Shown here piece after piece: positions 21,810-28,872 of a DNA stretch of 32,000 nt. The stretch spans positions 128,830 through 160,829 of the forward strand of contig JAIRQE010000019.1 of NCBI GenBank assembly GCA_031256725.1. Direction: 5' to 3'. The translations under genes and the position numbers were made by a program. Numbering within the stretch: the first letter of the stretch is position 1; each line of letters opens with the position of its first letter. The notes under the pieces are model-generated. The model was not told the origin of the DNA, ran no database searches, and saw only the letters and a list, made by a program, of their open reading frames with translations. This stretch comes from Propionibacteriaceae bacterium (GTDB taxonomy: Bacteria; Actinomycetota; Actinomycetes; Propionibacteriales; Propionibacteriaceae).

Positions 21810-23399
21810 ATGGTGGACATTGTTGGTACGACCACATTCCCACAGATGTGGGATGCGGCTGTACGCTGTGCAGGAGACCGAGTCTTCTTGGCCTTCCTGC
21901 ACAGTGATGGTACTCGCCTCGAGTTCACTTATCGAGAATTCGACAAGGTTGTATCACGAACCGTTTCTCATCTGTCCCATCTAGGGATAGGTCACGGCTC
22001 GATGGTCGCTATGCAACTATGCAACTCCCCATGGTTCATATCCTGCCTTATCGGCATCACAAAGCTCGGAGCCATCGCGGTACCAGTAGGCCCAGGTGCT
22101 ACTGGTACCGAGTTGGCCGGGATCTATGCCACCTGTGATGCCCAATGGGCCATCGTCGAGTCCATTCACGTGGACACCCACAAAGAATTACGCTTTCAAG
22201 GATTGATTCGCCACGGAATCATCTGCGTGGATGATCTCGTATCTAACGTGTCAGGGGACGCATATTGTGACACCTCAATTCCTGTAGTGATTGGGGTGTC
22301 ACAATATGCGTCCCCTGACGCTCCGCCCCCTGACACTAGACCAAACACAGGACCAACCAGTGATGACATTGCGGAGGTGATGTTCACCTCGGGCACAACC
22401 GCAGCACCTAAGGGTGTGCTGGTTACCCATGCCAACTTGGTCTACTCAGCTCATGTTGCCACCTGGCAGGCATCGCTGCGACCAGATGATCGTATCTTCA
22501 CGACCATGCCAGCCTGCCACTCCAACTTCCAACTGGTGGCATTAACGGGCGCGATTCTTTCAGGAGCCCGACTGGTCCTTTCCGAGAAGTACTCTGCTAG
22601 CCGCTTCTGGTCCCAGATACGCACCGAAAAGGCAACAGTGATCCAACTGACTGCCATGATGGCTCGTACCCTCCTTCTTCAACCATCGAGTGAAGACGAC
22701 TCCACCCACAATGTGCGGGAGACCTTGTACTTCATGCCTTTGCCTGATGCCGACAAACTGGAGTTTGAGAAGCGCTTCGGCGTGAGGTTCATGAACTCCT
22801 ATGGGTCGACCGAATCCATCTGCTGGGCGCTCACAGACCCACCTGTCGGGGAACGCAAGTGGCCTTCGGTGGGCCGTCCTGCTCTCGGGTACGAGGTCTC
22901 TATTGTGAGCCCTGAGGGTGACCATCTTCCAGCGGGGAGTCTTGGAGAGATCTGGGTGAAAGGTGTCCCCGGTCGTACCCTCATGAAAGGCTACCTGGGC
23001 AACGACCAGGCTACACATGCAGCCTTGACTGAGGACGGCTGGCTGCGTACCTCTGACACCGGATATTACGACGAACAAGGCTGGTTCTATTTCGTGGATC
23101 GGGCCCGCAACCTCATCAAACGTGGAGGCGAGAATATCTCAGCAACAGAGATTGAGACCCTACTCAACTCCCATCCCCTCATCAAAGAGGCCGCCGTGAT
23201 CGGTGTACCCGATCCTGTACGAGACCAAGCAGTGAAAGCCTTTATTCAGCCTGAGTCTGATGCTGAACTGGATACAGCGGATGTCGCATCATTTTGTTCC
23301 ATGCATCTCGCCAGTTTCAAAGTCCCCCAAATAATCGAGTTCGTGGAGGACTTTCCACGAACCGCCTCAATGAAAATCGAGAAGAGATCCCTGAGCTAA
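21810..23399 (+). CDS. caiC: AMP-forming acyl-CoA synthetase/ligase, CaiC-like
   Basis: Adenylate-forming motifs FTSGTTAAPKGV, SYGSTE, TSDTGYYDEQGWFYFVDRARNLIKRGGENIS and PRTASMKIEKRSL. The N-terminus MVDIVGTTTFPQMWD parallels E. coli CaiC MDIIGGQHLRQMWD (from memory). Confidence 0.85.
   Translation: MVDIVGTTTFPQMWDAAVRCAGDRVFLAFLHSDGTRLEFTYREFDKVVSRTVSHLSHLGIGHGSMVAMQLCNSPWFISCLIGITKLGAIAVPVGPGATGTELAGIYATCDAQWAIVESIHVDTHKELRFQGLIRHGIICVDDLVSNVSGDAYCDTSIPVVIGVSQYASPDAPPPDTRPNTGPTSDDIAEVMFTSGTTAAPKGVLVTHANLVYSAHVATWQASLRPDDRIFTTMPACHSNFQLVALTGAILSGARLVLSEKYSASRFWSQIRTEKATVIQLTAMMARTLLLQPSSEDDSTHNVRETLYFMPLPDADKLEFEKRFGVRFMNSYGSTESICWALTDPPVGERKWPSVGRPALGYEVSIVSPEGDHLPAGSLGEIWVKGVPGRTLMKGYLGNDQATHAALTEDGWLRTSDTGYYDEQGWFYFVDRARNLIKRGGENISATEIETLLNSHPLIKEAAVIGVPDPVRDQAVKAFIQPESDAELDTADVASFCSMHLASFKVPQIIEFVEDFPRTASMKIEKRSLS
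22250..22319. repeat. 70-nt near-perfect palindrome (25-bp perfect arms, extendable to about 30 bp) embedded in frame in the caiC-like CDS
   Basis: Left arm GTCAGGGGACGCATATTGTGACACC (22250-22274) is the exact reverse complement of 22295-22319. The inner CAAT/ATTG pairs extend the stem after one T/G position, leaving an 8-10 nt loop. The encoded peptide is SGDAYCDTSIPVVIGVSQYASPD. Confidence 0.9.
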
Positions 23400-28733: not shown

Positions 28734-28872
28734 TTAAGGGGACGTATCTTCTAACACACTTTATTTGAAATCCATGAAGATTTGATCGCTGTACCGGGTA
28801 CTGCATGTCGAAACTGCGCCACCGTCGTTGGATACACCAATTGTGAGCCTTGATAGTGGAGTTTGGGATGAG

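What the first reader, a model, noticed from the sequence alone, without database searches (positions are those of the whole stretch)
22248..22321. A 70-nt near-perfect palindrome is inserted in frame in the caiC-like gene (an RPE/MITE-like element or an intra-operon RNA structure)
25-bp arms are perfectly complementary (22250-22274 with 22295-22319). After one T/G position the stem continues through CAAT/ATTG, and outside the arms there is a T-G plus a G-C pair. This gives a hairpin of about 30 bp with an 8-10 nt loop. Such a structure is highly unlikely to arise by chance in a coding sequence.

It lies in the variable segment just before the P-loop motif FTSGTTAAPKGV. By my count that segment is 11 residues longer than the corresponding E. 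coli CaiC segment. Because of the symmetry, both strands encode similar peptides (SGDAYCDT / VSQYASPD).

Three explanations are possible:
- A small palindromic mobile element tolerated in frame, as for Rickettsia palindromic elements.
- A recombination or processing site.
- A very stable mRNA hairpin that partitions expression or stability between the upstream (caiA-caiB-fixAB) and downstream halves of the operon.

No target-site duplication is evident. CCCCTGAC recurs 15 bp downstream (22312-22319 and 22327-22334).
Basis: seen in the sequence. Interest (0 to 1): 0.62.

Follow-up and report, generated by a model that had tools for sequence, protein, structure and literature searches.

The report
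Palindromic repeat inserted in-frame in caiC
The 70-nt palindrome inside the carnitine-CoA ligase gene is one copy of a small hairpin-forming repeat found at about 44 places in this genome; it sits in frame in a floppy surface loop of the enzyme, which is a known kind of event (as in Rickettsia) involving a repeat family not seen elsewhere.

Summary
Window 22248-22321 is a near-perfect palindrome with 30-nt arms (29/30 complementary). As RNA it forms a 33-bp stem (-63.6 kcal/mol, z = -9.9). It lies in frame (24 codons) in an intact caiC-like gene of a caiA-caiB-etfBA-caiC-MFS-fixC operon.

It is not unique. Its arms belong to a dispersed family in this genome (uncultured Propionibacteriaceae per earlier scan notes): 63 arms at 44 loci, 17 of them inverted doublets of 74-150 nt, arm consensus GTGTCAGGGGACGTATCTCCTGACAC. 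A profile built without the caiC copy recovers both caiC arms (E = 0.0016 and 0.019). The CCCCTGAC recurrence 15 nt downstream is a family trait.

The family was not found in 300 other species of the same taxonomic family, nor in the metagenome, viral, phage or plasmid collections. It makes no target-site duplication, and no RAYT or matching transposase is in the assembly.

A second copy is a clear ~30-codon in-frame insertion in a GNAT gene, absent from 12 congeners. A third arm supplies a folP tail. AlphaFold2 puts the caiC insert in a disordered loop that ranges from 64 to 177 residues among homologues.

Verdict: a tolerated in-frame insertion of a REPIN/MITE-like element, analogous to RPEs. 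An RNA-processing role is neither supported nor excluded. The scan had already noted this family elsewhere in the genome.

The parts
21810..23399 (+). Host gene: intact caiC-like crotonobetaine/carnitine-CoA ligase (529 aa, P0001)
   Evidence: ORF. Best NCBIfam match is NF005947 CaiC, 584 bits, below the 651-bit equivalog cut-off. All invariant ANL motif residues are present. AF2 model has mean pLDDT 86.5. Operon context.
22248..22273 (+). Left arm of the element (26 nt, GTGTCAGGGGACGCATATTGTGACAC)
   Evidence: 22/26 identical to the family consensus. nhmmer with a profile built without this copy gives E = 0.0016 genome-wide (C15:151077-151103).
22274..22295 (.). Core: inner stem extension (CTCAAT / ATTGGG) around the 8-10-nt loop TCCTGTAGTG
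   Evidence: At 18-22 nt this is the shortest spacer of all 18 doublets examined.
22296..22321 (-). Right arm (reverse complement GCGTCAGGGGACGCATATTGTGACAC)
   Evidence: 21/26 identical to the consensus. nhmmer E = 0.019 (C15:151148-151125). It carries the same four departures from the consensus as the left arm.
22324..22336 (-). Outer half-site CGCCCCCTGACAC, 15 nt outside the right arm. With it the inserted block would be 22248-22337, which is 90 nt or 30 codons.
   Evidence: Direct repeat D2 and inverted repeat I3. About half of the 36 family ends carry such an extra TGTCAGGGG-like half-site 11-15 nt outside the arm, and the same feature flanks the GNAT-gene copy.

Best explanation
The palindrome is one copy of a lineage-private family of small hairpin-forming repeats. 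A full element is two inverted 26-nt arms around a variable spacer, and each arm is itself an imperfect palindrome (REPIN/MITE-like). This copy became inserted in frame into the length-variable, disordered loop that precedes the P-loop of the caiC-like ligase.

The insert is 72 nt (or 90 nt with the outer half-site) and has no stop codon in the frame used. It therefore adds 24-30 loop residues and is tolerated, so the gene stays intact. This is the same kind of event as Rickettsia palindromic elements and intragenic REPs.

Inferred, not shown:
- The family spreads or spread through a hairpin-recognising mechanism that leaves no target-site duplication, using an enzyme supplied in trans that is not in the assembly.
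- The near-perfect symmetry of this copy, including four departures from the family consensus shared by both arms, reflects a recent origin, arm-to-arm homogenisation by quasi-palindrome template switching, or both.
- Any effect of the 33-bp mRNA hairpin on translation or RNase III cleavage would be a by-product and not the reason the structure exists.
For: - Family exists. The terminus GTCAGGGGACGTATCTC (up to 2 mismatches) occurs 55 times in G000, against 1 for the reversed control. There are 63 arms with E < 0.01 at 44 loci, 17 of them inverted doublets. Catalogue.
- The caiC copy is a member. Both arms are recovered by a profile that excludes it (E = 0.0016 and 0.019), in inverted orientation 45 nt apart. 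Identity to the consensus is 22/26 and 21/26, and 24/28 to the nearest individual arms. It also has the family-typical outer half-site.
- The family inserts in frame into genes. A GNAT gene (PF00583, E = 3.7e-14) carries a 26/26 consensus arm inside a ~30-residue segment that is absent from 12 congeners. A folP-like gene takes its C-terminal tail and stop codon from another arm. A possible third copy lies in a CcdA-like loop.
- The site is permissive. The segment spans 64-177 residues in 119 homologues, 89 here and 70-77 in the nine closest. Structure-based alignments skip residues 124-177. In the AF2 model, residues 145-186 are coil with pLDDT < 50 at 145-163, while the rest of the model is confident.
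- The insertion is lineage-specific. The terminus was not found in 300 other species of the same family, in 40 relatives, or in the genome, metagenome and viral contig collections. The caiC insertion therefore post-dates the split from the sampled congeners, whose orthologues lack the peptide.
- No TSD at any offset. Arms of the same element co-vary (permutation p = 0.015).
Against: - No empty caiC site could be shown. The nearest homologue among 5.8 billion protein clusters is 64% identical, and the linker is too variable for residue-level homology. Removing 24 or 30 residues would leave a linker at or below the shortest seen (65 or 59 against a minimum of 64).
- No second copy of this exact subfamily exists in the genome.
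- No mobilising enzyme was identified. Y1/RAYT (PF01797) is absent, and the three rve transposases and one IS256 fragment are not flanked by family arms. Mobility is therefore inferred from distribution alone.
- The caiC copy is the only complete doublet deep inside a gene.
- The perfect symmetry of a copy that differs from the consensus at 4-5 positions per arm is also what selection on a hairpin would produce.
- Read-level confirmation of the assembly was impossible.
Confidence: 0.8

Rival explanations
1. The hairpin is a selected intra-operon RNA or DNA structure, for example an RNase III processing site or a ribosome-pausing site. It would uncouple expression or stability of caiA-caiB-etfBA from caiC and the downstream genes, having been exapted from a repeat copy.
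For: - The stem is very stable: 33 bp, -63.6 kcal/mol.
- Both arms share four departures from the family consensus, so complementarity has been kept.
- The genome encodes RNase III, and a 33-bp perfect duplex is a plausible substrate (general knowledge).
- This copy is the most tightly paired of 18 doublets, at -0.83 kcal/mol per nt.
Against: - It is absent from all orthologous operons.
- There is no Rfam match above threshold and no terminator-like tail.
- Translating ribosomes would keep a hairpin inside a CDS melted.
- Symmetry can be explained by recency or by template-switch homogenisation.
- There are no transcript data.
Confidence: 0.1
2. The encoded 24-30-residue peptide is the selected feature. 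In this reading the element was domesticated as a new loop that modifies CaiC activity, partner binding or regulation.
For: - The reading frame is open and the gene is otherwise intact.
- Three family copies contribute coding sequence.
- The frame used gives a similar peptide (VSGD..SPD) in the caiC and GNAT copies.
Against: - The loop is predicted to be disordered.
- It is unique to this genome.
- Two of the three frames of each arm are open anyway (read from the consensus), so the shared peptide motif simply mirrors the shared DNA.
Confidence: 0.05
3. The palindrome arose locally by inverted duplication or fold-back repair, independently of any repeat family, or it is an assembly artefact.
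For: - No TSD was found and there is no second copy of this exact unit.
- It is a near-perfect palindrome over its whole length.
- Reads could not be inspected.
Against: - Both arms match a profile built from the other elements. The joint chance of two such hits 45 nt apart in inverted orientation is negligible.
- It shares the family's outer half-site architecture.
- The frame is kept open. A fold-back origin from a pre-existing solo family arm remains possible, but that is a variant of the main explanation.
Confidence: 0.04

Closest known systems
Rickettsia palindromic elements (RPEs; Ogata et al. 2000, as summarised in PMC10969869)
   Same: Both are small palindromic repeats from a dispersed family, inserted in frame into unrelated metabolic genes. 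They add a peptide segment at a position compatible with the fold while the host gene stays intact.
   Different: - There is no sequence relationship, and the phylum differs (Actinomycetota, Propionibacteriaceae).
- This element is shorter (72-90 nt against ~100-150 nt).
- Only 2-3 of ~44 loci are intragenic here, whereas a large fraction of RPEs are.
- This family is mostly intergenic or at gene ends.
REPINs (REP doublets forming hairpins) and intragenic REPs (PMC3337134, PMC3116915, PMC3733652)
   Same: - Two inverted copies of a ~26-nt imperfect palindrome flank a spacer of variable length and sequence, and the whole element folds as one long hairpin.
- Many solo arms exist, no TSD is made, and clusters or extra partial units lie next to elements.
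- REPs inside coding regions are documented.
   Different: - No RAYT (PF01797) is in the assembly, and no arm-flanked transposase gene was found.
- There is no terminal GTAG or CGTC tag; a CGTC lies in the arm's loop and not at its end.
- Spacers are mostly not hairpin-optimised.
- Copy number is tens, not hundreds.
Prokaryotic type II MITEs such as Correia/CREE, ERIC and Coxiella QMITEs (PMC10969869, PMC5896051)
   Same: - The size range is similar, with ~26-nt terminal inverted repeats and hairpin-forming transcripts.
- Copies lie at gene ends or inside genes, where they can create in-frame fusions or new C-termini.
   Different: - No target-site duplication is seen at any offset or length.
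- No parent IS with the same ends is present.
- The arms are themselves palindromic.

Membership tests
Dispersed palindromic repeat family of this genome (arm consensus GTGTCAGGGGACGTATCTCCTGACAC) | The arm matches the family profile | tested here: met
   A profile of 32 arms that excludes the caiC copy gives E = 0.0016 and 0.019 genome-wide. Identity to the consensus is 22/26 and 21/26.
Dispersed palindromic repeat family of this genome (arm consensus GTGTCAGGGGACGTATCTCCTGACAC) | Two arms in inverted orientation around a short spacer, with an extra outer half-site and no TSD | tested here: met
   The caiC copy has the shortest spacer (18-22 nt) and the most symmetric arms.
REPIN (PMC3337134) | Doublet of inverted REPs, each an imperfect palindrome, that forms a hairpin | tested here: met
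   In the family consensus arm, GTGTCAGGGGA pairs with TCTCCTGACAC around a CGTA loop (read), and all doublets fold as one hairpin. In the caiC copy the intra-arm pairing is reduced to GTGTCA/TGACAC.
REPIN (PMC3337134) | Cognate RAYT (Y1 HUH transposase) in the genome, flanked by the REPs | tested here: not met
   PF01797 gives 0 matches in G000 while the control genomes are positive. The assembly is 97.7% complete and lacks small contigs, so absence is not proven.
REPIN / REP superfamilies (PMC3733652) | Conserved GTAG or CGTC tetranucleotide at one end of the REP | tested here: not met
   The arm ends are GTGTCA.../...TGACAC. The only CGTC (reverse complement of GACG) lies at the arm's centre.
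MITE (type II, DDE-mobilised) | Terminal inverted repeats | tested here: met
   26-nt TIRs.
MITE (type II, DDE-mobilised) | Target-site duplication flanking the element | tested here: not met
   No excess of flank identity for k = 2-9 at offsets 0-8 in 18 doublets.
MITE (type II, DDE-mobilised) | Parent IS with the same TIRs | tested here: not met
   The rve and IS256 genes are not flanked by arms, and there is no DDE_Tnp_1. The only candidate is the unassembled element at the ends of contigs C27 and C28, which may instead be an rRNA-operon leader.
Rickettsia palindromic elements | Sequence membership in the RPE-1 to RPE-10 families of Rickettsia | not tested
   No RPE sequences were compared. 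The organism is a Propionibacteriaceae member and the family is private to it, so this is treated as an analogue and not a member.
Rickettsia palindromic elements | In-frame insertion in an otherwise intact gene at a structurally permissive site | tested here: met
   for caiC; for the GNAT gene.
Intrinsic terminator / attenuator | GC-rich hairpin followed by a U-run | tested here: not met
   No terminator-like site was found at 22248-22340, and the tail is GCTCCGCCCCC.
CaiC (crotonobetaine/carnitine-CoA ligase, NF005947) | Score above the equivalog cut-off | tested here: not met
   584 bits against a cut-off of 651. It is the best-matching family, and the gene sits in a caiA-caiB-etf-fixC operon, hence 'caiC-like'.

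The most novel reading that the evidence does not exclude
This genome hosts a REPIN-like replicator family in an actinobacterium that lacks any RAYT. Its arms are kept symmetric by hairpin-templated correction. The caiC copy has been exapted as a 33-bp RNase III or ribosome-stalling site that splits the carnitine operon into two differently expressed halves.
Probability: 0.1. Interest if true: 0.6.

Novelty: new member of a known kind. Interest (0 to 1): 0.35.

Why it matters
This is a clean actinobacterial example of repeat DNA becoming protein-coding sequence, a process best known from Rickettsia. One lineage-private hairpin family added a loop to a CoA ligase, added a loop to a GNAT acetyltransferase, and supplied a new C-terminus to a folP-like gene.

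It shows that an apparent 'regulatory hairpin inside a gene' can be explained by checking the rest of the genome for copies. It also flags a REPIN-like family that makes no target-site duplication and has no recognisable transposase, a question already open for CGTC-type REPs (PMC3733652).

For annotation, it warns that the odd 24-30 residues in this CaiC are repeat-derived and not part of the enzyme's native sequence.

Tried and rejected
- **Exact-copy search.** No second copy of the 70-nt unit exists in the window or the genome; only family-level similarity was found.
- **Relic in G001.** G001 has an imperfect palindrome at the homologous position, but it is weak (z = -2.4, 3 of 200 shuffles as good) and has no other copies in G001. 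I rejected it as evidence of an ancient shared insertion.
- **Empty-site search.** The closest CaiC homologue in the 5.8-billion-cluster collection is 64% identical. The search for related loci in genome contigs returned nothing.
- **Autonomous partner.**
  - PF01797 and PF01609 were negative.
  - The rve and IS256 genes are not flanked by arms.
  - The 2.9-kb segment between two elements on C11 holds an ABC-transporter-like gene, not a transposase.
  - The shared C27/C28 ends have no match in phages, plasmids or metagenome contigs.
  - Because the assembly lacks 16S rRNA, those ends may be rrn leaders.
- **Family outside this genome.** None was found in genome contigs, viral contigs or metagenome contigs, in 40 relatives or in 300 species of the family.
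- **TSD.** None was found.
- **Known RNA families.** Only sub-threshold miRNA-hairpin look-alikes appeared.
- **Other elements inside stop-to-stop ORFs.** Four of the six tested have no Pfam match and look non-coding.
- **CcdA-like copy.** That loop varies in length among relatives, so this counts only as a possible insertion.

Full report
**1. The observation**

Window 22248-22321 is a near-perfect palindrome.
- The 25-nt arms 22250-22274 and 22295-22319 are exact reverse complements, with 0 matches expected in shuffles.
- The arms extend to 30 nt at 29/30 complementarity, with 10 nt between them.
- As RNA, 22230-22340 folds into a single 33-bp stem with an 8-nt loop. The MFE is -63.6 kcal/mol, against -29.1 +/- 3.5 for 200 dinucleotide-preserving shuffles (z = -9.9).
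- It starts at codon 147, phase 0, of ORF 21810-23399 (529 aa). It contributes 24 codons, VSGDAYCDTSIPVVIGVSQYASPD, 20 residues before FTSGTTAAPKGV.
- The downstream CCCCTGAC recurrence is real.

**2. The host gene**

- The best family match is crotonobetaine/carnitine-CoA ligase, NF005947, at 584 bits. That is below the 651-bit equivalog cut-off, hence 'caiC-like'.
- Neighbouring genes are caiA (698 bits), caiB (666 bits) and ETF beta/alpha upstream, then an unassigned ORF, an MFS transporter and fixC downstream.
- All residues that are invariant across 65 homologues are present. The gene looks functional.

**3. The palindrome belongs to a dispersed family**

- A genome-wide search gave many weak hits arranged as inverted pairs.
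- Cataloguing them defined elements of 74-150 nt. They are bounded by inverted 26-nt arms with consensus (G)GTGTCAGGGGACGTATCTCNTGACAC, around spacers of very different length and sequence.
- Several spacer subfamilies exist, and there are many solo arms.
- Each consensus arm is itself an imperfect palindrome: GTGTCAGGGGA pairs with TCTCCTGACAC around a CGTA loop.
- An nhmmer profile of 32 arms built without the caiC copy finds 63 arms with E < 0.01 at 44 loci, 17 of them doublets.
- That profile recovers the two caiC arms at E = 0.0016 and 0.019, inverted and 45 nt apart. Common origin with the family is therefore secure, although this copy is among the more divergent: 22/26 and 21/26 to the consensus, 24/28 to the nearest arms.
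- About half of the 36 ends of the 18 doublets examined carry an extra TGTCAGGGG-like half-site 11-15 nt outside the arm. The CCCCTGAC recurrence at 22324-22336 is that trait. With it the inserted block would be 22248-22337, which is 90 nt or 30 codons.

**4. Distribution**

- The 17-nt terminus with up to 2 mismatches occurs 55 times in G000, and 0-2 times in each of 40 relatives. The reversed control gives 1.
- With up to 1 mismatch it occurs 43 times in G000 and not at all in 300 other species of the same family, spanning 40 genera.
- It has no exact match in the genome, viral or metagenome contig collections.
- The family was not found outside this lineage in any genome or collection searched. 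Its expansion, and so the caiC insertion, post-dates the split from the sampled congeners.

**5. Is the caiC segment an insertion?**

- True orthologues exist in only three congeners, at 58-64% identity, and none encodes the peptide.
- Among 119 homologues, the segment between residues 112 and 200 spans 64-177 residues with a median of 79. It is 89 here and 70-77 in the nine closest relatives.
- Sequence matches to solved ANL enzymes skip residues 124-177.
- An AlphaFold2 model (mean pLDDT 86.5, pTM 0.80) has its only long low-confidence stretch at residues 145-163. It shows no secondary structure from 145 to 186.
- The site is therefore a permissive, disordered loop, and the local sequence is longer than in the nearest kin.
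- A residue-exact empty site cannot be shown, because the closest homologue in 5.8 billion clusters is 64% identical.
- G001 has a weak quasi-palindrome at the same place. It is not significant (z = -2.4) and not repeated in G001.

**6. The family inserts in frame elsewhere**

- Among complete doublets, only the caiC copy lies deep in a long ORF. The others are intergenic or clip the first or last few codons of ORFs.
- Screening all profile hits revealed three further cases.
  - (a) A GNAT/RimI-like gene at C24:106853-107410 (PF00583, E = 3.7e-14) has a 26/26 consensus arm preceded by an outer half-site. The arm lies within ~30 extra residues, TVVAGVSGDVSPDNETPEIMTECGSPEDCGDRVWN. Twelve congeners have only 2-4 residues there. 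This is an empty-site-type demonstration of in-frame insertion.
  - (b) A folP-like gene (Pterin_bind, E = 1e-62) takes its last ~18 codons and its stop codon from a solo arm at C16:238000-238033.
  - (c) A CcdA-like gene has an arm-like stretch in its TM1-TM2 loop. That loop varies in length among relatives, so this is only a possible case.
- In the frame used, the arm encodes VSGD..SPD in both the caiC and GNAT copies. Two of the three frames of each arm are open, so an in-frame, stop-free insertion is not improbable.

**7. Mechanism**

- No target-site duplication is detectable for k = 2-9 at offsets 0-8. This argues against a classical DDE-type MITE.
- The architecture is what is defined as a REPIN (PMC3337134): two inverted imperfect palindromes, variable spacers, solo arms, adjacent partial units and no TSD.
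- No Y1/RAYT gene is in the assembly, and there is no terminal GTAG or CGTC tag. This resembles the transposase-less CGTC REPs discussed in PMC3733652.
- The three rve transposase genes and one IS256 fragment are not flanked by arms.
- Contigs C27 and C28 end in the same ~320 nt: tandem TTGTCAGGGG 11-mers, two direct arms, then a promoter-like stretch, an RBS and a GTG. This could be the end of an unassembled parent element. Because the assembly has no 16S rRNA, it could equally be the leader of the unassembled rRNA operons. It has no match elsewhere.
- Arms of the same element co-vary (p = 0.015). The caiC arms share four departures from the consensus. I attribute this to recency, quasi-palindrome template-switch homogenisation, or both. 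That is an inference from general knowledge and is not tested here.

**8. The RNA-structure alternative**

- The hairpin has no U-tail and no Rfam family, and it is absent from orthologous operons.
- RNase III is encoded in the genome, so cleavage of untranslated mRNA is conceivable.
- I rate a selected RNA role at about 10%.

**9. Comparison and novelty**

- In-frame palindromic repeats in genes are known: RPEs, intragenic ERIC and REPs, and Coxiella QMITEs (PMC10969869, PMC3733652, PMC5896051).
- This is a new, lineage-private family in an uncultured Propionibacteriaceae genome, so it is a new member of a known kind.
- Earlier notes of this scan had already spotted the same family on other pieces of the genome (e1-2745710), as well as arm-like repeats at cistron junctions including the folP end (e1-2745985). 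I re-derived both independently.

**10. Verdict**

Interest is modest.

Noticed in passing
window 28734-28760 (C15:157563-157589): A solo family arm, TTAGTTAAGGGGACGTATCTTCTAACAC, lies directly after the stop codon of an upstream ORF (nhmmer E = 0.0024). Relative to the consensus, GTCA...TGAC has become GTTA...TAAC. This looks like a compensatory pair that preserves the hairpin within the arm.
   Followed up: partly
G000 C24:106853-107410 (- strand; locus L063): A GNAT/RimI-like acetyltransferase carries a ~30-residue in-frame insertion. It starts with a 26/26 consensus family arm and is absent from 12 congeners.
   Followed up: yes
G000 C16:238000-238033: A folP-like (Pterin_bind) gene takes its last ~18 codons and its stop codon from a solo family arm (…GVSQDMSPDTTTGVHL*).
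   Followed up: partly
G000 C10:8167-8937 (locus L079): A CcdA/DsbD-like membrane protein has an arm-like stretch (GTGTCACGAGATACATCCCCCTGGC, with a duplicated CCCCTTGGCTCATCCA) that encodes part of the TM1-TM2 loop. That loop varies in length among relatives, so an insertion is possible but not shown.
   Followed up: partly
G000 C27:32691-33009 and C28:99004-99322 (loci L061, L062): Two contigs end in the same ~320-nt sequence: tandem TTGTCAGGGG 11-mers, two direct family arms, then a promoter-like stretch, an RBS and a GTG at the very end. This is either the end of an unassembled larger mobile element or the leader of the unassembled rRNA operons. The assembly contains no 16S rRNA.
   Followed up: partly
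G000 C4:48115-48231 and more than 25 other places (C11, C3, C18, C16, C2, C10, C24, C25, C26, C12): A second, unrelated dispersed repeat of ~100-115 nt (74-87% identity between copies) showed up when contig ends were compared with the genome. It is probably the 'family 1' MITE-like repeat of earlier scan notes.
   Followed up: no
G000 C26:77333-79441 and C12:1-8400: Long tandem or degenerate repeat arrays lie at contig ends. C26 has a period of ~64 nt over about 2 kb, and C12 has ~300-nt units at 68-79% identity. They are likely repetitive surface-protein genes.
   Followed up: no
G000 C27:12563-13880: An rve-type IS has several direct copies of TCTCGGGACATAGGAAAC at one end and an inverted copy at the other. 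It is unrelated to the palindromic family.
   Followed up: no
L032:2570-2650 (- strand; G001 caiC orthologue): An imperfect ~43-nt palindrome (two adjacent small hairpins) lies at the position homologous to the G000 insertion. It is weak (z = -2.4) and has no other copies in G001, so it is probably chance.
   Followed up: yes
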